From: a virus
Taxonomy: Duplodnaviria; Heunggongvirae; Uroviricota; Caudoviricetes
DNA: 8,041 nt
Virus record (IMG/VR): IMGVR_UViG_2737471861_000016
Strand: one strand, 5' to 3'
Shown: in pieces, positions 1-8,041 of the stretch
How the letters are laid out: each line of letters starts with the position of its first letter
How positions within the stretch are numbered: the stretch's first letter is position 1
Translations under genes and position numbers: made by a program
Notes under the pieces: generated by a model
Databases searched by the model: none
The model's input: only the letters and a program-made list of their open reading frames with translations
Told to the model about the DNA's origin: nothing

Positions 1-149
1 TCCTTTCATGAAAATACGCAATATCAATCATCCAGCGCGTTAAAAGCTACGTAGCTCATCAAGAGTCTAAGCAGAAGTCTTTCCGTGTTAGCCAGAAGTG
101 GAAACAACGTGCAAAGCTTGCCCTTGCTGGTGAACAACGTCTTACAAAG

Positions 150-1151
150 ATGGTTCCCGGATGGATTGACCCCGATACTTTCAAGTGCAATGAACACGCT
201 GAGACTGTAAGACTGATTTTCAAGCTGCTGCTAGATGGTGAAAGTCTGCATAACATCGCCCGTCACCTACAGGCTAATAACATTAGTTCATTCTCACGGC
301 GTAAAGATGCTAATGGTTTTAGCGTTCATTCTGTGCGTACTATCTTAAGGTCAGAGACAACGAGAGGTACACTACCAGCATCACAGCGCAATGACCGCCC
401 CGCTATACCGAACTACTACGAAGCCGCTATAGATGCTGCAACGTTCAATAAGGCTCAAGAGATTCTCGACAAGAATCGTAAAGGCCGCACACCTGCAAGT
501 GATAACCCATTAACGATTAACATCTTCAAAGGTCTGTTTAGGTGTCAGTGTGGGGCTAGTGTCCATCCTACCGGAACAAAGAATAAGTATGCTGGGGTCT
601 ACAGGTGCAATAACCACTTAGACGGTCGCTGTGATGTTCCACCGTTGAAGCGTAAACCGTTTGATAAGTGGATGATTGATAATTTTCTGGGGATGATTGA
701 CGTGGGGAATGATGGAGAAGCAGAGGGGAAGATTGCATCTCTACAGCATGAGGTTGAAATTGTCACAACCAGAATCAAGAAAGCTACCGCCCTACTTCTT
801 GAGATGGATGATATTACAGAGTTGAAAACACAGGTGAAGGAACTGAACCAGAAGCGCACAGAACTACAGACCACGATTGATAGCATGAGGCGTAAAACTT
901 CACTCAGTGATAAGGGATTACCCCAACTTAAAGATATTGACCTTATGACTAAAGAGGGTCGTGTCGAGTGTCAGTTGATTTTGTCCAAGCATCTAAAAGG
1001 GCTTACATTGGGTAAGGATTCGGTAACTGTAACGCTACAGAACGACACTGAAATAACCATACCTACAGACCCGCTACCGCTAAATGATGGAACATCAATC
1101 TTTGAAATTGCTGAGAAAAATCTTTTGAATATTGACACTTTCCAACTGTAG
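150..1151 (+). CDS. Large serine recombinase, C-terminal portion (recombinase domain, zinc ribbon, coiled coil); catalytic domain not present in this ORF
   Basis: Translation matches the serine-recombinase 'recombinase' domain pattern (IDPD...ETVRLIFKLLLDGESLHNIARHL...FSVHSVRTILRSETTRG), followed by a Cys-rich zinc ribbon (FRCQCG...YRCNNHLDGRC) and a long coiled-coil stretch. No Shine-Dalgarno precedes the ATG at 150, and the in-frame upstream codons 12-149 encode a helix that looks like the end of the catalytic domain, so the ATG is probably an internal Met. Confidence 0.8.
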   Translation: MVPGWIDPDTFKCNEHAETVRLIFKLLLDGESLHNIARHLQANNISSFSRRKDANGFSVHSVRTILRSETTRGTLPASQRNDRPAIPNYYEAAIDAATFNKAQEILDKNRKGRTPASDNPLTINIFKGLFRCQCGASVHPTGTKNKYAGVYRCNNHLDGRCDVPPLKRKPFDKWMIDNFLGMIDVGNDGEAEGKIASLQHEVEIVTTRIKKATALLLEMDDITELKTQVKELNQKRTELQTTIDSMRRKTSLSDKGLPQLKDIDLMTKEGRVECQLILSKHLKGLTLGKDSVTVTLQNDTEITIPTDPLPLNDGTSIFEIAEKNLLNIDTFQL

Positions 1152-1159
1152 CAATCAAT

Positions 1160-1178
1160 CAGGGGGCTATGCCCCCCT
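1160..1178. terminator. Bidirectional intrinsic terminator candidate between convergent genes
   Basis: GGGGGC (1162-1167), loop TAT, GCCCCC (1171-1176), lying between the recombinase stop (1149-1151) and the stop of the minus-strand gene (1183-1185). The flanking T tracts are weak on both strands. Confidence 0.5.
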
Positions 1179-1182
1179 TCTA

Positions 1183-1971
1183 TCAATATCTCTTGTTCGG
1201 ATTCACTGAGTACTTTTTAAGCTTTGAAGCTACTCGACCAGCGTTACTGTTAGCATTGGTGACGTTGGTTTTTTCAGCTTCTGTTAAGTCTGAATAGTCC
1301 AGCTTCCAAGCCTTATTACATTTAATCTGAGCATCGAGAATATCATTTCTGATAGCTGGAGCGTAACCGGATACATCGTTAATACTCATTAGCTCTTTGC
1401 ACGATAGCATAGGCGCGTTATTGCGTTCAGTGGTCACGTTACCTGCATTCTTCTTACTGGTCACACCACCGTCATTTGTAGTAGCAGTCTTTCCAGTTGC
1501 AGCCGAAATATCAGTTTGTCCCACGACAGCTTTAAAGTTAATTTCCTGAAAAGTTAGCTGGATACGAAGACCGTTAGAGATAGTAACATCTTTAGAGGCT
1601 TTAAAGCTCGTAATAATGGAATCATCAATCTTGATACCGTCTTTACAGATAACTGAAATAATTTGCTTCTGGTCTCTCCAGCTCTCAAGAGTGTCAATGA
1701 AGTTTTCTACTAATTGACCCTGACGAGTTAATAATAAGCTCCCTTCATAGCCAACTACAACGACACCACTAATAGTGATTGTTCTGGGTGCTCTTTGCAC
1801 GTTATCTGTAACGGTTTGCCCTGATTGCATGTTCTGTGTAGTTACCTGCATAGGACTATCAAATTCCATGTTCTCAGTTGCTGATAAGGTTAAGAAGGCA
1901 TCTACATTATCTCTTAAGTGGAAATAGATGCCGTCTTTGCCACTGTAGCGGATTTGATTGCTAAAAATCAT
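1183..1971 (-). CDS. Hypothetical protein (262 aa) immediately downstream of the tape measure gene; possible tail component by position only
   Basis: ORF with an internal ATG at 1971-1969 preceded by AAGGAG at 6-nt spacing (minus strand AAAGGAGAATTTAATG). The track's upstream TTG at 1992 lacks an RBS. No motif recognised. Confidence 0.6.
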
Positions 1972-1988
1972 TAAATTCTCCTTTGATT

Positions 1989-2032
1989 TCAAAGGCTTAG
2001 TGTATTTTAATCATTTTTAACCAAGCCTTTGA
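1989..2032. promoter_or_regulatory. 10-bp perfect inverted repeat (TCAAAGGCTT / AAGCCTTTGA) with 24-bp spacer, just upstream of the RBS of the 262-aa gene
   Basis: Arms at 1989-1998 and 2023-2032 are exact reverse complements. No T tract follows on either strand, so this looks like an operator or RNA structure rather than a terminator. Confidence 0.45.
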
Positions 2033-2127
2033 TATATAAGTACTTTCTCTGTTAAGCGTGAGCTACGTAAATTCTATTTTTCAGTGCGGGTATTAACTTT
2101 GCTTTATTCACGTAGAACACCGTTAAA

Positions 2128-4308
2128 TCAATCATCTTCTGGGAATGATGAACTCAATAACGTAGCCTCTGCATATTGGTCATACAGACTGCTGTTAAAT
2201 GTCATAAAGCTGGTTTCATCTGGTTTAATAGCAACTTCACCACCAAGTGAAACTTTCACAGGCTCCTGAATACGTTTACTCAAAGCAGAGATTTCATCCC
2301 TCAGACTTTGAATATCTGCACTCGTTAATGCTGAATCTTGCTTAATATTGTTTAATTCTGGATGATTGAATCTTGCAATATTCATTGTGGCATTGTTAAA
2401 CAATTCACCCATTGAACTAAAAATTTTACTCCACCCCTCATTAATCATATTCGGTTTATTAGGGTCACCAGAATACACAGGATTAAAGTCACTACCCACA
2501 CCTACCCCAGATGGATGCATATTAGCGTTTTTGACTACTTCCTGATTCATAAAATCCAGTGCTTTCTTCAATGCATATAAACCAAGAGTGACACCTCTGA
2601 TTTGTGGAATCATTGAAGCTAATGCTAACGCTGTTTCATAACCGTCATCAGCATAACCAATTGCAAGAGCACTACCTACACCACCAGCTACACCTTTCAG
2701 TTTTCCACCACCTTTACCAGTAGCTACCTGACCAGCCACCTGATTAGCTCTTGTACCTAACGTTGTGATTGCTCTTGTCAGGTTCATAACCCCTGTAGTA
2801 GCACTGAATAGTGTCTTTGCAGATAACGCTATAGCAAGACCTTTGACGAAGTTGATAAAACCATCACCGACTTCATCAAGTAGTTTTCGTTTAGTGTCAT
2901 CAAGGCTGTAATAGAACTTCTTAGTCTGTAAAATCCAGCCTTCAAGGTGATTGTTAAAGATACGGATGTCATCTACACCAGCTTTAAGCATGTCGATAAG
3001 TCCACCGATAGCATCACCAGCGATAGAAGAACTCATCCCCATTTCACTAAGCAAGCTACTCATGCTGGATAAGAAGCCATTTAGCTCATCCTGTGAACCT
3101 GAGAAGATTTTCACCATCGTATCATCCCAGTTGTTTGCTAACTTACCTAAAGCTGTCTGTGTGCTCTTAGCGACTTCAGCCCAGCCACCCGCTTTATCAA
3201 TCATCAAGCCCATCTGTTTAGCGACTTTAGGGAGAGTATCAGCGGAAAGCACCTTCCCGTCTTTCATCGCTTTATCAAGCTCTGTAGCAGTCATACCCAA
3301 TGCTTCAGCGAATAGCTTAAATGCACCAGCCATACGGTCACCTAACTGACCACGAAGCTCTTCAGCCTGAATCTTGCCCTTAGAAGCCATCTGCTCAAAA
3401 GCTTTCAAAATGCCGTTTAGCTCATCGTTAGAAAGCCCCATTAAGCGACTCATAGCTGTTGCATTACCAAATAGTTGTTGTGTCTCATCCTGTGACATAG
3501 AACCCTGAGCACCTGCTGCAAACTTAGCGTAGCTTGATAGCCCTTCAGAGATATTAAGACCTGTCTTGTCTGCTAAATTTCGAATAAATACCTCAGCTTC
3601 AGATGCTTTATCACCAAGTACAAACTTAGCGGCTCTCTGTGCGGAATCTCGTTTAAGACCTGCATTCATGATGGCCTTGTAAGCGTTAAGAGCACCCATC
3701 ACAGAGTAAAATGCACCAGATAATTTAATCGCATTGCTTGCAAGATTATTAAATGCGTCGCTTGTATTGTTAATGCTGGTGGTCTTTGTCTGTGACCTGA
3801 GTTTATTCAACGTTTCACGAAGAGATTGATTTAATTTTGCAAGTTCAGCGTTAAACTTTTCACTTCCAATATTACCAGCCTTACCGCTTAAGCTGTAATA
3901 CTGTGCTTTAAACATTTTAGCCATCAGCGGATTAATATCACCAAGCTTAGACATATTCACGCTATGTGCCGCTGTGATTGCTCTGTTGCCGCTAATTCGT
4001 GGCTGTCTTGATTGTTTTGGAGGATTAACAGTGTCATTAAATCTGGTGGCAAACTGAAATACTTTTGTGTTTCTTGCTCTCTGTTCAATCTTGTCAAAGG
4101 TCTTATTAAACTTCCTTTCAAGTTGCCCTAAAGAACTTGTCAGATTGCTGTCAAGTTGCTTGGTATCGACCTTAAACGCTCTATTCAAATTACGTTCAAT
4201 TCTTTGTGCTGACTGCAAAGCTGCCTTTTCAACTCTTTGCAAGCCCTTAATAACGTTCTCGCTGAAGCCTAGCTCAACGATAAAACTATCAACTGTGAAT
4301 TTGCTCAT
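2128..4308 (-). CDS. Phage tail tape measure protein (726 aa)
   Basis: Contains the tape-measure signature KGKIQAEELRGQLGDRMAGAFKLFAEALGMTATELDKAMKDGKVLSADTLPKVAKQM, which resembles the lambda gpH segment ELNKALKDGKILQADYNTLM. It also has a Gly-rich hydrophobic region (GKGGGKLKGVAGGVGSALAIGY) and a long helical N-terminus. RBS AGAGGTGAAAC precedes the ATG. Confidence 0.85.
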   Translation of the reverse strand: MSKFTVDSFIVELGFSENVIKGLQRVEKAALQSAQRIERNLNRAFKVDTKQLDSNLTSSLGQLERKFNKTFDKIEQRARNTKVFQFATRFNDTVNPPKQSRQPRISGNRAITAAHSVNMSKLGDINPLMAKMFKAQYYSLSGKAGNIGSEKFNAELAKLNQSLRETLNKLRSQTKTTSINNTSDAFNNLASNAIKLSGAFYSVMGALNAYKAIMNAGLKRDSAQRAAKFVLGDKASEAEVFIRNLADKTGLNISEGLSSYAKFAAGAQGSMSQDETQQLFGNATAMSRLMGLSNDELNGILKAFEQMASKGKIQAEELRGQLGDRMAGAFKLFAEALGMTATELDKAMKDGKVLSADTLPKVAKQMGLMIDKAGGWAEVAKSTQTALGKLANNWDDTMVKIFSGSQDELNGFLSSMSSLLSEMGMSSSIAGDAIGGLIDMLKAGVDDIRIFNNHLEGWILQTKKFYYSLDDTKRKLLDEVGDGFINFVKGLAIALSAKTLFSATTGVMNLTRAITTLGTRANQVAGQVATGKGGGKLKGVAGGVGSALAIGYADDGYETALALASMIPQIRGVTLGLYALKKALDFMNQEVVKNANMHPSGVGVGSDFNPVYSGDPNKPNMINEGWSKIFSSMGELFNNATMNIARFNHPELNNIKQDSALTSADIQSLRDEISALSKRIQEPVKVSLGGEVAIKPDETSFMTFNSSLYDQYAEATLLSSSFPEDD

Positions 4309-4338
4309 TCATGTTTCACCTCTTAAGTGTTCATATAC

Positions 4339-4379
4339 GAAAAAGGGGAGGACCAACCAATTAAGGTTAATCTCTCCCC
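4339..4379 (-). terminator. Intrinsic terminator or attenuator candidate in the 93-bp gap directly upstream of the tape measure start
   Basis: On the minus-strand transcript: GGGGAG (pairs 4374-4379 with 4345-4350), an inner AACC/GGTT stem around AATTAA, then CTCCCC followed immediately by TTTTT. About 30 nt further on lies the tape measure RBS. Confidence 0.5.
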
Positions 4380-4401
4380 GTATTCACCCAACCAATCTTT
4401 T

Positions 4402-4611
4402 TTAATGCCTGACAAGATAATGTAGTTCCGTTTCACCTATAATTTGAGCATCGGAAGGGATACGGTCGATACACCACTTTGGAATCTTGCGTGTTTTTGG
4501 TTTGTGTGAGGTGATAACTTGACGTTTGTTTTTAATTCTTAAGGCTGGATTGGCTTGTAACTTTAAGTTTTCACAAACAGACCGAATAGTCTCTAAACGC
4601 TCTTCAAACAT
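4402..4611 (-). CDS. Hypothetical small basic protein (69 aa)
   Basis: ATG at 4611-4609 preceded by AAGAGGTGATTA, almost the same RBS as the tape measure gene. An in-frame stop lies just upstream, so it is not a frameshift extension of the 235-aa gene. Confidence 0.5.
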   Translation of the reverse strand: MFEERLETIRSVCENLKLQANPALRIKNKRQVITSHKPKTRKIPKWCIDRIPSDAQIIGETELHYLVRH

Positions 4612-4634
4612 TAATCACCTCTTTTAATTCATAG

Positions 4635-5342
4635 TTAAAGTGCCTTTGCATATTTCTGAGAAATCTTCGTAAGCTGCTCAATATCAGCCTGCATAGCAAC
4701 CTTCTTCTGCGACTCATATTCACTAACAAGGTCTTTCATAGCCTGAAGCTCTCTTGAGAGATACAACTTAACATTATCAAGTTGCTTGTTACGTGATGCC
4801 AAGATGTTCTGTCTGGCAAGTTCACAGAGTTCTTCATCGCTCTTATTAGTCATGTAAATAAACTGACCAGCACCTCTTGATGCCTTAACCATCTTCACAA
4901 TTCGGTGTCCATCAGGAAGATTATTAATCACGTCTGGGATATTCTCAGGAAAAGTACCAAAACCATCATTGTCTTCATATTGGTGATAAACAAATGGTTT
5001 CTGTGACAATTCATCCTGAATCTCAAATTCTGACGGTTCAATAGCTGATTGCATCAGGGTAACTTTGCTGTAAGCGTCATCTAATCTAAGACGCTGTGCT
5101 TTTAAAGCTGGGTAATATTTCTTTTCAAGCTCAAGCAATGCTTCAGTTTTGCAGATATCAGGCATTTCTTGAGGTTCAGGGGCCACAAAGGTGATTTCTT
5201 TTGGCGACCTCTTTAACTCTTGCTCAAACTTAATTCTTTCATCGTGCTCTTTGCGCTGAATAGCGATAGCTGGATGTTCAGTCTGTGGTGACCAGTCACC
5301 GAAGCTATCAATCTTTTTACCGTTAATATATAGATTTTCCAT
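4635..5342 (-). CDS. Hypothetical protein (235 aa) with a charged, probably coiled-coil C-terminal third
   Basis: ATG at 5342-5340 preceded by AAGAGGA at 7-nt spacing. C-terminal region (ELARQNILASRNKQLDNVKLYLSRELQAMKDLVSEYESQKK) is helix-like. No family recognised; it does not look like a beta-rich major tail protein. Confidence 0.6.
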   Translation of the reverse strand: MENLYINGKKIDSFGDWSPQTEHPAIAIQRKEHDERIKFEQELKRSPKEITFVAPEPQEMPDICKTEALLELEKKYYPALKAQRLRLDDAYSKVTLMQSAIEPSEFEIQDELSQKPFVYHQYEDNDGFGTFPENIPDVINNLPDGHRIVKMVKASRGAGQFIYMTNKSDEELCELARQNILASRNKQLDNVKLYLSRELQAMKDLVSEYESQKKVAMQADIEQLTKISQKYAKAL

Positions 5343-5351
5343 TTCATTTTC

Positions 5352-5413
5352 CTCTTCTAAGTATATTCAGTTTTTAAAAAGCACACCTGACAGCCTATCT
5401 AAACTTAGAAGAG
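5352..5413 (-). promoter_or_regulatory. 11-bp perfect inverted repeat whose downstream arm overlaps the Shine-Dalgarno of the 235-aa gene (possible RBS-sequestering hairpin)
   Basis: CTCTTCTAAGT (5352-5362) and ACTTAGAAGAG (5403-5413) are exact reverse complements. In the minus-strand mRNA the 3' arm ACUUAGAAGAG runs into the SD AAGAGGA. The 40-nt loop contains nested TCAG/CTGA and a TTTTTAAAAA palindrome. Confidence 0.45.
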
Positions 5414-5577
5414 ACTTAAAAGGCGGTTTGCCAAGTATGCTTTTTAAAAGCTGAAAAAAGCCCTAAACATAGGTGATTCGGATATTCATGGAATCATCCT
5501 TATCTGTGAAGGGCTTTGAAGGTTTGCTTATAACGTTAACGAAGTTTCAGGAAAAACTTTCTTTAAAAGTTCTGTTT

Positions 5578-5616
5578 GAAAACTCTTAAAGAAACGCCCT
5601 AACTCATGATTAGGGC
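5578..5616 (-). terminator. Intrinsic terminator or attenuator candidate inside the long leader
   Basis: Minus-strand transcript: GCCCTAA (5616-5610), loop TCATGAG, TTAGGGC (5602-5596), followed by GTTTCTTTAAGAGTTTTC. The plus-strand orientation has no U tract. Confidence 0.45.
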
Positions 5617-5763
5617 AAAGCTGTAAGGGTTCAATAATGAATGATTAAGCACTTTTTGAGATGACCTCTCAGACTAAACTGAAAGGCCATGACGAAAAGC
5701 ATTGCACCTTTCCAATCAGAATATAGTTATCATCGATGTAGAGACGATTAATAGTTTAATTCA

Positions 5764-5780
5764 GGAAGAGTTGCTCTTCC
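5764..5780. promoter_or_regulatory. Perfect 7-bp stem, 3-nt loop hairpin (GGAAGAG ttg CTCTTCC)
   Basis: Exact inverted repeat at 5764-5770 and 5774-5780. It lies just downstream (minus-strand sense) of the candidate promoter at 5789-5817. No U tract follows, so it is a 5' stem-loop or protein-binding site rather than a terminator. Confidence 0.4.
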
Positions 5781-5788
5781 CTATTACC

Positions 5789-5842
5789 ATCATCTCATGC
5801 TTAAGATTATTTGTCAACAGCTTTTTAACAGATTGGTAACAT
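5789..5842 (-). promoter_or_regulatory. Candidate minus-strand promoter and operator: TTGACA -35 with weak -10, plus three phased (C/T)AACA(G/T) repeats
   Basis: Minus-strand TTGACA (plus 5812-5817), 17-bp spacer, GATGAT (plus 5789-5794). The plus strand carries CAACAG 5815-5820, TAACAG 5826-5831 and TAACAT 5837-5842 at exact 11-bp spacing. The core TTGTCAACA is shared with the 7197-7205 promoter region. Confidence 0.4.
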
Positions 5843-5918
5843 TAATTCTTATTTACCGTGTTACCTACCCAGCAACCAACAAATAAACCCAAAGCTGTCC
5901 AAGCAATTATTAAGCCCA

Positions 5919-6242
5919 TTAATGCACCACCTTCGAATCCGTAACCAAAATATTGTCAGCGTACAAAATTTCTATAGCTGCCTTGAGATATTTTTCAGGG
6001 CTAACGCTGTATTTGTTCGTTTGCTCGATAACCAATCTTTTCATGTTGCTGTCTTTAATTGGTAGCATCATTCGAGGCTCGTTAAACTCCACCGACTGAA
6101 TAAAGTCAGAGATGTTTTCTGCATTATCAGCCATCAAAGCTAACAGCCGGTCAAAGTCAATGCTAATACCTGCATCAATGAAGCTTTGCACCATCATAGC
6201 GGTGTCGTTATCAACGAAAATCTGTAGCGGGTAATTGTTCAT
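5919..6242 (-). CDS. Hypothetical acidic protein (107 aa)
   Basis: ATG at 6242-6240 preceded by AGGAGA at 9-nt spacing. No recognisable motif. Confidence 0.6.
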   Translation of the reverse strand: MNNYPLQIFVDNDTAMMVQSFIDAGISIDFDRLLALMADNAENISDFIQSVEFNEPRMMLPIKDSNMKRLVIEQTNKYSVSPEKYLKAAIEILYADNILVTDSKVVH

Positions 6243-6412
6243 TTCTTAAAATCTCCTTTTTCACCAGACCTCCTCAATCGCTCTGTAACGAGCTAAACAG
6301 TCTTTTTCAGGGGTAGCCTGTAGGGGTGTACCACATACCCTAAAATAAGATAGTTTTTTGCGTTAGAATGCGATTGAGAGCGTCTGAGAGTGGGTAAACC
6401 CGTTTTTTGCCT

Positions 6413-6622
6413 TTAGTCTGAGACTATTAACCCCATCTCACTATGAAATTGACTAAACCAGCTTTTTGTTACTGAGGTTTTTAGTGTGAAAGATGGGGAT
6501 TGCATAATCAGATAGATGCCATCATTATCAATGTCACCCCATCCATTATGTACATCAATTAGATTTCGAAAATATTTAAAGGCTTTGTCTGTTTTAAGTT
6601 TGAGGGTGAATACTTTCTTCAT
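6413..6622 (-). CDS. Hypothetical protein (69 aa), translationally coupled to the upstream gene
   Basis: ATG at 6622-6620 overlaps the TGA of the upstream gene (ATGA overlap) and is preceded by GGGGGAAAGA. The track's TTG at 6634 is an unlikely start. Confidence 0.55.
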   Translation of the reverse strand: MKKVFTLKLKTDKAFKYFRNLIDVHNGWGDIDNDGIYLIMQSPSFTLKTSVTKSWFSQFHSEMGLIVSD

Positions 6623-6849
6623 TCTTTCCCCCAATTCTTAATGAGTTCACAGGCCCGTTTAAATTGAGTCGGGTCACTATAATCAAGCTCGATATCCAGT
6701 GACTTTAATTCATAGCGTAACTGCTCAATTTGATGTGGCTTTAGTCTTTTCTTGTTACGGTCAAGCGTAACATCTTCATATTCTTTTGAGCGGGTATCTT
6801 GCCTGATTAGATGTGATGCCAGTTTATAAAATTTGTACCTATAACACAT
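6619..6849 (-). CDS. Hypothetical basic protein (76 aa), translationally coupled to the RHH-like gene
   Basis: ATG at 6849-6847 overlaps the TAA of the upstream gene (TAATG) and is preceded by GGGGG. No family recognised. Confidence 0.55.
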   Translation of the reverse strand: MCYRYKFYKLASHLIRQDTRSKEYEDVTLDRNKKRLKPHQIEQLRYELKSLDIELDYSDPTQFKRACELIKNWGKE

Positions 6850-7139
6850 TAAACCCCCAGCTTATCCGCCAGTTGATGAACCTTAGCGCTTAACACCTGA
6901 ATCATTGAGCAACCTGTTACAGCGGACTGTGCTTTGAGTAGTTCCAGTTGGCCCGTTGTGATTCTGATGGCCTTAGAACCCTCTGCAACGCCCTTAACGT
7001 TATCAAAAGGGGTAAGGGCTACCGACTCTTTTAAAAGCTCTCCAACAAGCGCCGTGTGCTTCATATCGGGATATTTGGTTTTGATTGCTGCCAGTCGTTC
7101 AAATGCCTCTGGCAAAAGGCGCGTAACTGTGTGAGTCAT
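6849..7139 (-). CDS. Putative ribbon-helix-helix (CopG/Arc-like) DNA-binding regulator, possibly two tandem RHH-like units (96 aa)
   Basis: N-terminus HTVTRLLPEAFERLAAIKTKYPDMKHTALVGELLKESV fits the RHH pattern (beta strand, then LPEEL-type helix, then helix B). A second similar unit follows (KAIRITTGQLELLKAQSAVTGCSMIQVLSAKVHQL). Strong promoter and AAGGAG RBS upstream. Confidence 0.5.
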   Translation of the reverse strand: MTHTVTRLLPEAFERLAAIKTKYPDMKHTALVGELLKESVALTPFDNVKGVAEGSKAIRITTGQLELLKAQSAVTGCSMIQVLSAKVHQLADKLGV

Positions 7140-7174
7140 TGTAAAATCTCCTTAAATCTCTTACTCATACTACA

Positions 7175-7203
7175 ATCTTAACATTTATTTAACATATTGT
7201 CAA
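7175..7203 (-). promoter_or_regulatory. Sigma70-type promoter candidate for the RHH-led operon
   Basis: Minus-strand TTGACA (plus 7198-7203), 17-bp spacer, TAAGAT (plus 7175-7180). AAGGAG RBS sits 8 nt before the ATG at 7139. Confidence 0.6.
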
Positions 7204-7217
7204 CATCTCATTTACAT
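7179..7217. repeat. Four hexamer repeats (T/C)(A/T)ACAT phased at exactly 11 bp across the divergent promoter region (operator candidate)
   Basis: TAACAT 7179-7184, TAACAT 7190-7195, CAACAT 7201-7206, TTACAT 7212-7217. Confidence 0.55.
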
Positions 7218-7225
7218 GTTAATAT
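7197..7225 (+). promoter_or_regulatory. Sigma70-type promoter candidate for the small plus-strand ORF, back-to-back with the minus-strand promoter
   Basis: TTGTCA (7197-7202), 17-bp spacer, TAATAT (7220-7225) with an upstream TG (extended -10). Its -35 overlaps the minus-strand -35 by 5 bp. Confidence 0.5.
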
Positions 7226-7275
7226 GGTTATAGGGGCTGATACAGGTCATTCCCTTTGATAAATAAGGGGAATTA

Positions 7276-7461
7276 ATGGGCTTTCTTGAAACAATTGCTG
7301 AATCTCACAGATTCGCAAGCTTAGGTTGCTTTGTGTTTTTGGTGCTTCTGGTGTATCAGCTTTTAAAAATGATTATCGCCAAAAGTACACGATTCAATTT
7401 CAGCATTAAGTTTTTCAAATATGAAATCACAATTACGATTGATGATGGTAAAACAAACTAA
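7276..7461 (+). CDS. Small hydrophobic single-pass membrane peptide candidate (61 aa)
   Basis: ATG at 7276 preceded by AAGGGG at 5-nt spacing and by the plus-strand promoter. Contains one predicted transmembrane segment (LGCFVFLVLLVYQLLKMII). Its stop overlaps the stop of the convergent HNH/AP2-like gene. Confidence 0.4.
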   Translation: MGFLETIAESHRFASLGCFVFLVLLVYQLLKMIIAKSTRFNFSIKFFKYEITITIDDGKTN

Positions 7462-7751
7462 CGTTTTGTGATGATATTGGTGGCTCTCAGATTACCGGGG
7501 TCACCGTCTTTTAATCGTAGCTGGTGGACTGAATCCCAGATATCATAATGATACAGCACTGCAAACCTCAAAGCGTCAATCTTTAAATCTGTCACACCAT
7601 CGTAAAAGAAATAATAATCTCTCCCTTCCTTCTTCGGTCTAATCCGGTAAACTTCCCCGTGAGTATCCTTCATAAGATGACCTTCACGAGAAATGCGGTA
7701 ACGCTTTAACAGGCAATCTTTGTATCTCTTTTCACCGTGATATTCTTTCAT
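7458..7751 (-). CDS. HNH_3/AP2-like domain protein (97 aa); the canonical catalytic His position appears substituted
   Basis: Pattern YRISREGHLMK...ALRFAVLYHY...LRLKDGDPGNLRATNI resembles HNH_3/AP2-type domains (VHRLVAEAF...NHKDGNKTNNRxxNL). ATG at 7751-7749 is preceded by GGAGG at 9 nt and overlaps the upstream TAA (TAATG). The track's GTG at 7757 is too close to the RBS. Confidence 0.4.
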   Translation of the reverse strand: MKEYHGEKRYKDCLLKRYRISREGHLMKDTHGEVYRIRPKKEGRDYYFFYDGVTDLKIDALRFAVLYHYDIWDSVHQLRLKDGDPGNLRATNIITKR

Positions 7752-8041
7752 TAGCACATACCTCCACCAGCAAAATACATCTTCGGTTTAATTTTTTGCT
7801 TCTTGTCATCCTGAGTTTGTTTCTTTTTCGGTGTGAAAGAAAAGTCATCATCGTCACTGTCATCGAATGGGTCTAAACCCGATACTTTGTTCTTTTGTCT
7901 TGCAAGCTCGAATCTCTTTTTCTTCTCTACCCTCTTAATGGCTTTTTCACGTTCTGACTCTTCATCCTCTTCATCATCATCGAAGGGGTCCATCTCATCA
8001 TCAGTGGCGGGGCACTGTGTGCTGATGAATCCCCTAATGAT
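7751..8041 (-). CDS. Acidic/basic low-complexity protein with two DPFDD(D/S) repeats; 5' end probably outside the window
   Basis: The reading frame stays open to the window edge (...TDDEMDPFDDDEEDEESEREK...GLDPFDDSDDDDFSF...KKQKIKPKMYFAGGGMC). There is no convincing RBS before the ATG at 7993. It is translationally coupled to the downstream HNH/AP2-like gene. Confidence 0.5.
   Translation of the reverse strand: MIRGFISTQCPATDDEMDPFDDDEEDEESEREKAIKRVEKKKRFELARQKNKVSGLDPFDDSDDDDFSFTPKKKQTQDDKKQKIKPKMYFAGGGMC

What the first reader, a model, noticed from the sequence alone, without database searches (positions are those of the whole stretch)
5811..7217. Shared operator-like architecture at two regulatory regions: TTGTCAACA core plus 11-bp phased AACA(T/G) repeats
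Region 7179-7217 has four (T/C)(A/T)ACAT hexamers at exact 11-bp spacing centred on TTGTCAACA, overlapping both divergent -35 boxes. Region 5811-5842 repeats the arrangement (TTGTCAACAG, then TAACAG and TAACAT at +11 and +22). One helical turn phasing at two promoters suggests one regulator controls both the RHH operon and the downstream tape-measure operon. The RHH-like protein encoded next to the first site is the obvious candidate.
Basis: seen in the sequence. Interest (0 to 1): 0.7.

Follow-up and report, generated by a model that had tools for sequence, protein, structure and literature searches.

The report
Phased operator boxes for tandem-RHH regulator
Two promoters of a small phage-related island in E. 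coli carry the same short DNA boxes (TGTTA) spaced one helical turn apart. They are most likely the landing sites of the island's own small ribbon-helix-helix regulator, which makes this an ordinary kind of genetic switch sitting in a poorly known mobile element.

Summary
TAACAT/TAACAT/CAACAT/TTACAT lie at 7179, 7190, 7201 and 7212. CAACAG/TAACAG/TAACAT lie at 5815, 5826 and 5837. All are exactly 11 bp apart, and TTGTCAACA occurs only at these two places.

Read on the minus strand, the boxes are TGTTA/G and TTGTCAACA is TGTTGACAA. So the "core" is a consensus -35 hexamer (TTGACA) overlapped by one box, not a separate operator element.

Both sites are predicted sigma-70 promoters:
- R1 holds back-to-back promoters for the 96-aa gene's operon and for a 61-aa ORF.
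- R2 is a promoter followed by a 440-nt structured leader with two terminators, ahead of the tape-measure operon.

Across about 30 related islands, box bases almost never vary (1 of 55 positions) while spacer bases do (20 of 42). A distant island type (regulator 36% identical) keeps R2 unchanged. Its own promoter has a different layout of the same boxes at the same 11-bp spacing, including an inverted pair.

The 96-aa protein models as a single-chain double RHH. Its best structural matches are F-plasmid TraY and single-chain Arc.

Binding, and whether it represses or activates, are inferred and not shown. I rate this a new member of a known kind, of moderate interest.

The parts
7179..7217 (-). 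R1 box array. On the minus strand the four boxes read TGTAA (7216-7212), TGTTG (7205-7201), TGTTA (7194-7190) and TGTTA (7183-7179), with an 11-bp period. They cover about -49 to -11 of P-left and about -53 to -15 of P-right.
   Evidence: Conserved in relatives.
7175..7203 (-). P-left, the predicted sigma-70 promoter of the RHH operon: -35 TTGACA (7203-7198), 17-bp spacer, -10 TAAGAT (7180-7175), with TG before the -10.
   Evidence: 10 of 12 consensus positions. The allelic -10 TAAAGT in relatives keeps the spacing.
7197..7225 (+). P-right, the predicted divergent promoter: -35 TTGTCA, 17-bp spacer, -10 TAATAT. It leads to the 61-aa ORF.
   Evidence: 9 of 12, TG before the -10.
6849..7139 (-). 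Gene for the 96-aa single-chain tandem RHH protein, the candidate regulator. Predicted strands are at residues 3-7 (HTVTR) and 57-61 (AIRIT).
5843..6849 (-). Rest of the P-left operon: the 76-aa (6619-6849), 73-aa (6413-6634) and 107-aa (5919-6242) ORFs, plus an unannotated 25-aa hydrophobic peptide ORF (5843-5919). The middle genes differ between relatives.
7276..7461 (+). 61-aa ORF with a predicted membrane helix, downstream of P-right. Its ribosome-binding site sits in a hairpin.
   Evidence: Annotated in relatives.
5815..5842 (-). R2 box array. On the minus strand the boxes read TGTTA (5841-5837), TGTTA (5830-5826) and TGTTG (5819-5815), at about -60, -49 and -38 of P2.
   Evidence: Invariant in 28 loci while spacer 1 varies. 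The 50-bp block is present in 467 of 5426 E. coli genomes.
5789..5817 (-). P2, a predicted sigma-70 promoter: -35 TTGACA (5817-5812), 17-bp spacer, -10 GATGAT (CATAAT in most relatives).
5343..5782 (-). Structured leader RNA downstream of P2. It carries terminator T1 (stem 5617-5595 plus a U run) and terminator T2 (5517-5454).
   Evidence: T1; z = -8.2; both hairpins conserved; T2 read by eye.
1183..5342 (-). Downstream operon: 235-aa ORF (4635-5342), 69-aa ORF (4402-4611), tape measure protein (2128-4308) and Dit-like tail protein (1183-1992).

Best explanation
The TGTTA/TAACA pentamer boxes, spaced 11 bp apart (one helical turn, so all on one face of the DNA), are operator subsites for the island's own 96-aa protein. 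That protein is a single polypeptide containing two ribbon-helix-helix repeats, so one molecule forms the complete two-stranded DNA-reading ribbon that normally needs a dimer.

One molecule would sit on each box, and neighbours would touch each other to form a short train of three or four. At R1 the train covers the -35, spacer and -10 of the protein's own promoter and of the divergent promoter. The protein would therefore limit its own synthesis and silence the 61-aa gene. At R2 the train covers the -35 and the 25 bp upstream of a strong promoter that heads the leader of the tail-gene operon, most likely repressing it.

Shown by computation: the boxes, their phasing, their conservation, the promoter consensus matches and the fold prediction. 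Inferred: the binding itself, one molecule per box, cooperativity and repression.
For: 1. Boxes and phasing are real and confined to two sites in the whole island.
2. Both sites coincide with the three best sigma-70 consensus matches in 5300-7500.
3. Across R1, R1' and R2 variants, 1 of 55 box-core positions varies against 20 of 42 spacer positions (Fisher p = 3e-8). R2 spacer 1 occurs as CCAAT, TCAAT, TCAAC, TCAGA and TCGGG with the boxes intact.
4. The 50-bp R2 block is at least 90% identical in 444 of the 467 genomes that carry it. The surrounding 608 bp is mostly 80-90% identical.
5. Islands with a regulator only 36% identical (P0044 type) keep R2 unchanged. Their own promoter is ATGTTA-N5-ATGTTA, then TTGACA-17-TAGTAT, then an inverted TAACAG-N5-TAACAT. 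The 11-bp box spacing holds even where the distance to the -35 shifts by 1 bp. Those regulators keep the strand motifs HT(V/L)TR and IRIT.
7. Solved precedent: F TraY is a monomer with the fold of an RHH dimer, and a train of three TraY (two direct, one inverted) occupies bp +61 to +90 of oriT (10.1101/2024.12.19.629322). ParG dimers each load on one short box in direct or inverted orientation, with AT-rich spacers between (PMC3130281).
8. In a related island of Lonsdalea britannica, the same TGTTA-N6-TGTTA-N6-TGTTGACA array lies directly upstream of a 45-aa CopG-type RHH gene.
9. The one locus with a mutated box (TGTTA to TGCTA) has a frameshifted RHH gene.
Against: - There is no binding data of any kind.
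- The model confidence is modest (mean pLDDT 60-63). Foldseek E-values are weak (best 0.04). No Pfam, PHROG or PDB sequence match supports the RHH call.
- The relatives are close (75-95% nucleotide identity), so conservation is partly inherited. The boxes were defined after seeing the data.
- One box at each site overlaps the -35 hexamer, which is conserved for its own reason.
- The Lonsdalea RHH next to the array has a different strand sequence (KVQFQIS), so conserved strands do not simply track conserved boxes.
- In the P0040-type island (L012) the R1 array is absent and no clear replacement array was found.
- P2's boxes lie mostly upstream of the -35, a position that also suits an activator.
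Confidence: 0.6

Rival explanations
1. The boxes are real protein-binding sites, but for a different protein. One option is a host OmpR/PhoB-family response regulator. These bind head-to-tail on direct repeats with a 10-11-bp period at or near the -35; the PhoP box, for example, is (T/G)GTTTA-N5-(T/G)GTTTA (my own knowledge). The other option is a different island protein, such as the Dam methylase with its C-terminal HTH_7 domain or the O-like replication initiator.
For: The geometry (hexamer plus 5-bp spacer, direct repeats, overlapping or just upstream of the -35) is what OmpR/PhoB-family sites look like. TGTTAA and TGTTGA are one base away from TGTTTA (my reading). The Dam-HTH_7 protein is present in all island types, and its recognition helix is nearly unchanged.
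Against: - TGTTA, not TGTTTA, is invariant in 25 R2 variants.
- The promoters already have consensus -35 and near-consensus -10 elements, unlike typical activator-dependent promoters.
- Arrays of 3-4 boxes and an inverted downstream pair fit RHH trains better than response-regulator dimers.
- An RHH gene accompanies the array in three different layouts.
- The O-like Rep is missing from P0044-type islands that keep the boxes.
- The Dam HTH stays nearly the same in L012/L013, where the R1 array is gone.
Confidence: 0.2
2. No dedicated regulator is involved. The similarity reflects promoter anatomy (a consensus -35 with its TG/A flanks and an A/T-rich UP-like upstream region) together with common descent of promoter modules shuffled between islands by recombination.
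For: TTGTCAACA is simply TGTTGACAA, a -35 hexamer with flanks also seen in strong E. coli promoters (my knowledge). Spacer 2 of R2 (AAAAG) and the A5-6 run in R1' look like a proximal UP subsite. A single phased 5-mer run is common in shuffles.
Against: - UP elements and -35 hexamers do not explain invariant TGTTA boxes at -49 and -60 with freely varying spacers.
- They do not explain boxes inside the spacer and at the -10 of P-left.
- They do not explain an inverted box pair downstream of the start site in R1' whose 11-bp spacing is kept through spacer changes.
- The same boxes appear in a Lonsdalea island whose surrounding sequence is otherwise different.
Confidence: 0.12
3. The arrays are structural DNA sites unrelated to transcription, such as replication-origin iterons or a packaging or recombination site recognised by a helper-phage or island protein.
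For: Phased short direct repeats are typical of origins and of small-terminase or partition sites. The island encodes a replication initiator and two serine recombinases.
Against: - Every array coincides with a consensus promoter.
- Islands without the O-like Rep keep the arrays.
- No ParM/ParA-type partner gene is present.
- The arrays are far from the island ends, where recombination sites should lie.
Confidence: 0.05

Closest known systems
F-plasmid TraY (single-chain tandem RHH) bound as a train at oriT
   Different: There is no sequence similarity detectable by Pfam or PDB profile searches. No relaxase or oriT context is present. The sites here overlap promoters, whereas TraY's main role is in DNA transfer initiation. 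The recognised sequence differs.
Phage P22 Arc (and Mnt) at the immI divergent promoters
   Different: Arc is a homodimer binding a roughly symmetric 21-bp operator as a tetramer. Here an asymmetric single-chain module is paired with direct repeats, 3-4 subsites, and a second operator at a distant promoter.
Omega repressor of pSM19035 and ParG of TP228 (RHH proteins reading arrays of short boxes)
   Different: The box period is 7 bp (omega) or 8 bp (ParG) against 11 bp here, and those proteins are homodimers. They belong to plasmid partition and copy-control systems with ATPase partners, which are absent here.
ParR-parC of plasmid R1
   Same: 11-bp direct repeats at the promoter, bound by an RHH protein that autoregulates its operon (my knowledge, not tested here).
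   Different: parC has ten repeats that act as a centromere together with the ParM actin-like ATPase. No such gene is in the island, and only 3-4 boxes occur per site.

Membership tests
Ribbon-helix-helix (Arc/MetJ/CopG) DNA-binding superfamily | Strand-helix-helix fold, with two strands pairing into an antiparallel ribbon | tested here: met
Ribbon-helix-helix (Arc/MetJ/CopG) DNA-binding superfamily | Sequence-profile membership (Pfam RHH_1 and related models, or similarity to solved RHH chains) | tested here: not met
   No Pfam family at E <= 0.1. No PHROG family. No PDB chain below E = 0.5 with a profile search.
Ribbon-helix-helix (Arc/MetJ/CopG) DNA-binding superfamily | Sequence-specific binding to repeated subsites through the ribbon in the major groove | not testable with these tools
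   Only indirect evidence: phased conserved boxes next to the gene.
TraY family (single-chain tandem RHH relaxosome accessory proteins) | Two RHH repeats in one polypeptide | tested here: met
   F TraY is described as a monomer with the RHH-dimer fold.
TraY family (single-chain tandem RHH relaxosome accessory proteins) | Sequence homology to TraY, and a conjugative transfer context (oriT, relaxase) | tested here: not met
   No Pfam TraY hit. 14% identity in the structural alignment. The neighbours are tail, replication and recombinase genes.
Type II partition (ParR-parC-ParM) | Adjacent actin-like ParM ATPase gene and a long iteron centromere | tested here: not met
   No such ORF or domain in the window or the island. 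Only 3-4 boxes occur per site.
OmpR/PhoB-type response-regulator sites (for example the PhoP box) | Direct hexamer repeats with an 11-bp period at the -35 region | tested here: met
   The geometry fits.
OmpR/PhoB-type response-regulator sites (for example the PhoP box) | Match to the (T/G)GTTTA consensus, and a weak -35 that needs activation | tested here: not met
   The boxes are an invariant TGTTA/G. The promoters carry a consensus TTGACA. The consensus itself is recalled from my own knowledge.

The most novel reading that the evidence does not exclude
The tandem-RHH protein and its two box arrays are the master switch of an undescribed family of phage satellites present in about 9% of complete E. 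coli genomes. In the resting state it holds down both the early divergent promoters and the late promoter P2. On infection by a Felixounavirus helper it is inactivated. Read-through of the two leader terminators then lets the island express its own tape measure and Dit-like proteins to remodel or hijack the helper's tail.
Probability: 0.25. Interest if true: 0.7.

Novelty: new member of a known kind. Interest (0 to 1): 0.42.

Why it matters
If the model holds, two 30-45-bp DNA sites and one 96-aa protein define the control point of an island carried by roughly one in eleven sequenced E. coli. That island shares near-identical tail-gene sequence with virulent Felixounavirus phages, which are used in biocontrol and therapy. 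Knowing the switch would make it simple to test whether, and by which phage, the island is induced. It would also give a second natural example, after TraY, of single-chain RHH modules lining up as a train on direct repeats. As regulatory logic it is conventional.

Tried and rejected
- Sequence searches for the 96-aa protein found nothing informative: Pfam, PHROGs, a PDB profile search and tblastn against phages.
- An exhaustive profile search of 1.8 billion representatives found only 8 proteins, two of them useful distant relatives.
- The window has no match in plasmids, and Rfam has no family for the leader.
- The generic repeat statistic showed that R1 alone could be chance, so I relied on the two-site statistic and on comparison with relatives.
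- Replication iterons were rejected because islands lacking the O-like Rep keep the boxes.
- DnaA box and IHF site were considered by eye only. TTGTCAACA is two mismatches from TTATCCACA, and no WATCAR-N4-TTR match lies over the boxes.
- The P0040-type island (L012/L013) was examined for a co-varying operator. It lacks the R1 array. Its two regulatory regions share an exact 11-mer, ATCACAATAAA (roughly 0.02-0.05 expected by my estimate), but no phased array was evident, so this stays ambiguous.
- Adding the two distant homologues to the alignment did not raise model confidence.
- Literature searches found no description of this island. The nearest is a set of putative E. coli satellites that carry tape measure and baseplate genes but a different gene content.

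Full report
**Where the window comes from.** The window is 100% identical to the chromosome of E. coli OkiPb01716, positions 2,190,436-2,198,437. It lies in an island of about 11.5 kb (plus an inserted ISEc12) between tonB and yciI. Running leftward on the minus strand, the island's gene order is:
- a DNA-invertase-type small recombinase;
- a Dam methylase with a C-terminal HTH;
- an O-like replication initiator;
- a 99-aa gene;
- the R1 region;
- the 96-aa gene and a few small genes;
- the R2 region;
- a 235-aa and a 69-aa gene;
- a tape measure protein and a Dit-like tail protein.

A large serine recombinase lies at the far end. Parts of the window match 496 of 5426 complete E. coli genomes, always on the chromosome, and match no plasmid. 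Among phages, only the tail genes match: bases 1438-1956 are 91-92% identical to more than 200 Felixounavirus genomes.

**The observation.** It is correct as written. R1 has TAACAT, TAACAT, CAACAT and TTACAT at 7179, 7190, 7201 and 7212. R2 has CAACAG, TAACAG and TAACAT at 5815, 5826 and 5837. TTGTCAACA occurs only at 7197 and 5811.

Chance was tested in several ways:
- A run of three identical 5-mers at some fixed period of 6-30 bp turns up in 30% of dinucleotide shuffles of the window, so R1 alone proves little.
- The same 4-mer at the same period at two separate places occurs in 1.1% of 2000 shuffles, a four-copy run in 2.8%, and both together in 0.05%.
- The triple-box pattern gives 3 matches where 0.01 are expected.
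- It has no other match, even with two mismatches, in 32 kb covering the whole island and its chromosomal flanks.
- By composition I expect about 0.01 such triple arrays per E. coli genome (my arithmetic).

**What the sites are.** On the minus strand TTGTCAACA reads TGTTGACAA, which contains the consensus -35 hexamer TTGACA. The consensus scan places three of its four promoter-like hits in 5300-7500 exactly here:
- P-left: TTGACA-17-TAAGAT, minus strand, leading to the 96-aa gene.
- P-right: TTGTCA-17-TAATAT, plus strand, leading to a 61-aa ORF.
- P2: TTGACA-17-GATGAT, minus strand, at R2. Most relatives have CATAAT as the -10.

So the shared "core" is a -35 element overlapped by one box. On the minus strand the boxes read TGTTA, TGTTG or TGTAA. 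Relative to the inferred start sites they lie near -49, -38, -27 and -16 of P-left, which is also about -53 to -15 of P-right. At P2 they lie near -60, -49 and -38.

**Comparison with relatives.** I fetched ten E. coli relatives chosen across the identity range. Further family members came from a pattern scan of one genome per species and of viral contigs.

In R2, 25 distinct sequence variants keep ATGTTA, TGTTA and TGTTGACAAATAA unchanged. The first spacer, by contrast, occurs as CCAAT, TCAAT, TCAAC, TCAGA or TCGGG, and both flanks diverge strongly.

The 50-bp R2 block is present in 467 genomes, and 444 of them are at least 90% identical. The surrounding 608 bp is 80-90% identical in most genomes. 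Summed over R1, R1' and R2, 1 of 55 box-core positions varies against 20 of 42 spacer positions (p = 3e-8). These counts are not independent of relatedness or of my box definition. The single box change (TGTTA to TGCTA) is in a locus whose 96-aa gene is frameshifted.

**A second island type.** The exhaustive profile search found only two distant full-length homologues of the 96-aa protein.

One of them (P0044, 36% identical) marks a set of islands with the same late genes and an identical R2, but a different early region that lacks the O-like Rep. The promoter of their regulator operon reads ATGTTA-N5-ATGTTA, an A run, TTGACA-17-TAGTAT, and then, downstream of the start, an inverted TAACAG-N5-TAACAT.

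Among seven variants the spacers change and the distance from the boxes to the -35 shifts by 1 bp, yet box-to-box spacing stays at 11 bp. The same boxes at the same period in a third layout, including an inverted pair, are hard to explain by promoter anatomy or shared descent alone. These regulators keep the strand motifs HT(V/L)TR and IRIT.

A related island in Lonsdalea britannica has TGTTA-N6-TGTTA-N6-TGTTGACA directly upstream of a 45-aa CopG-type RHH gene. It also has an R1-like site elsewhere.

The other distant homologue (P0040; first strand HTVLR) belongs to an island without the R1 array. Its two regulatory regions share a different exact 11-mer. This hints at a changed specificity but is not conclusive.

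**The protein.** Sequence methods say nothing. Two AlphaFold2 runs give the same topology: strand-helix-helix, an 18-residue low-confidence linker, then strand-helix-helix. Mean pLDDT is 60-63.

I therefore call it a single-chain tandem RHH with moderate confidence. It is not a member of the TraY family by sequence or by genomic context.

**Mechanism.** A single-chain RHH module is asymmetric, which fits asymmetric boxes arranged as direct repeats. The 11-bp period places successive modules on one face of the helix.

The solved F relaxosome shows this mode: three TraY monomers form a train on bp +61 to +90, two in direct and one in inverted orientation, contacting each other. ParG shows one RHH module per short box, tolerance of box inversion and AT-rich spacers.

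My best reading is that the 96-aa protein coats R1, which gives autorepression and silences P-right, and also coats R2. Repression at P2 is favoured because its -35, spacer length and -10 are near consensus. However, boxes at -49 and -60 would also suit an activator, so the sign of regulation is open.

**Limits on the "tape-measure operon" link.** P2 is followed by about 440 nt before the 235-aa gene. This RNA folds far better than shuffles (z = -8.2). It contains one scanned intrinsic terminator (5617-5595) and a second hairpin plus U run (5517-5454, read). Its hairpins are maintained through compensatory changes. It matches no Rfam family. Expression of the tail genes must therefore also need read-through, and P2 may mainly yield a short RNA of roughly 195 nt.

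**Rivals.** They are:
- a host OmpR/PhoB-type regulator or another island protein;
- plain promoter anatomy;
- an origin, packaging or recombination site.

They are set out with their evidence in the rival-explanations section. Together I give them about 0.4.

**Verdict.** The regulator assignment is plausible but unproven. The kind of system is familiar: an RHH protein reading phased short boxes at its own promoter and a second one. Its setting, an apparently undescribed satellite-like island, is the more unusual part.

Noticed in passing
window 5343-5782, minus strand: About 440 nt of conserved, highly structured leader (z = -8.2) with two intrinsic terminators (5617-5595 and 5517-5454) between P2 and the tail-gene operon. 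The hairpins are kept by compensatory changes, and G-U pairs are possible only on the minus strand. There is no Rfam match. It resembles a terminated short RNA or antitermination checkpoint, as at lambda PR'.
   Followed up: partly
window 1-8041 and L001 9000-23500: The island (serine integrase, Dit-like protein, tape measure, replication initiator, Dam-HTH, invertase; no capsid or terminase genes) is present in about 9% of complete E. coli genomes at several chromosomal sites. Bases 1438-1956 are 91-92% identical to over 200 Felixounavirus genomes. It looks like an undescribed phage satellite or tail-interfering element. The nearest literature is putative E. coli satellites with tape measure and baseplate genes (PMC10055350), which differ in gene content.
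   Followed up: partly
window 5843-5919, minus strand: Unannotated 25-aa hydrophobic peptide ORF (MGLIIAWTALGLFVGCWVGNTVNKN). Its start overlaps the stop of the 107-aa ORF (TAATG), and its stop abuts the first R2 box. The peptide is conserved in relatives.
   Followed up: partly
window 7226-7461, plus strand: The 61-aa membrane-type ORF downstream of P-right has an invariant 5' leader (GGTTATAGGGGCTGATACAGG). Its ribosome-binding site lies in a hairpin that exists in two allelic, mutually compensated versions. The ORF's 3' end overlaps the 3' end of the convergent 99-aa gene.
   Followed up: no
window 5593-5617: The loop of terminator T1 is inverted between alleles (CTCATGA versus TCATGAG) while the stem is unchanged.
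   Followed up: no
window 150-1151 and L001 9023-13132: The large serine recombinase gene is split by an IS21-family ISEc12 insertion, so this copy of the island may be immobile. Its P2 -10 (GATGAT) is also weaker than the CATAAT of most relatives.
   Followed up: no
L035 (Lonsdalea britannica) 6549-6774 and 10026-10060: A related island in another genus. The triple TGTTA array plus TTGACA lies directly upstream of a 45-aa CopG-type RHH gene. There is a second small RHH-like ORF (strand THTVMY) at 7212-7364, and an R1-like site whose strong -35 is on the opposite strand.
   Followed up: partly
L012/L013 7967-7977 and 9054-9064: In the island with the most divergent regulator (P0040; first strand HTVLR), the R1 array is missing. 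Its two regulatory regions instead share an exact inverted 11-mer, ATCACAATAAA, which may be a changed operator.
   Followed up: partly
window 6413-6849 versus L002-L011: The genes between the regulator gene and the 107-aa gene differ from island to island (76 + 73 aa here; 129 aa, 141 aa or 72 aa elsewhere), like a cargo hotspot inside the regulator's operon.
   Followed up: no
window 7458-7757 and L014 8285-8557: Small proteins of 90-99 aa. The L014 copy has a weak HNH_3 match, just below Pfam's cut-off; the window's 99-aa protein has no Pfam match and resembles that motif only by eye. Both sit in the early region, on opposite sides of the regulator gene in the two island types.
   Followed up: no
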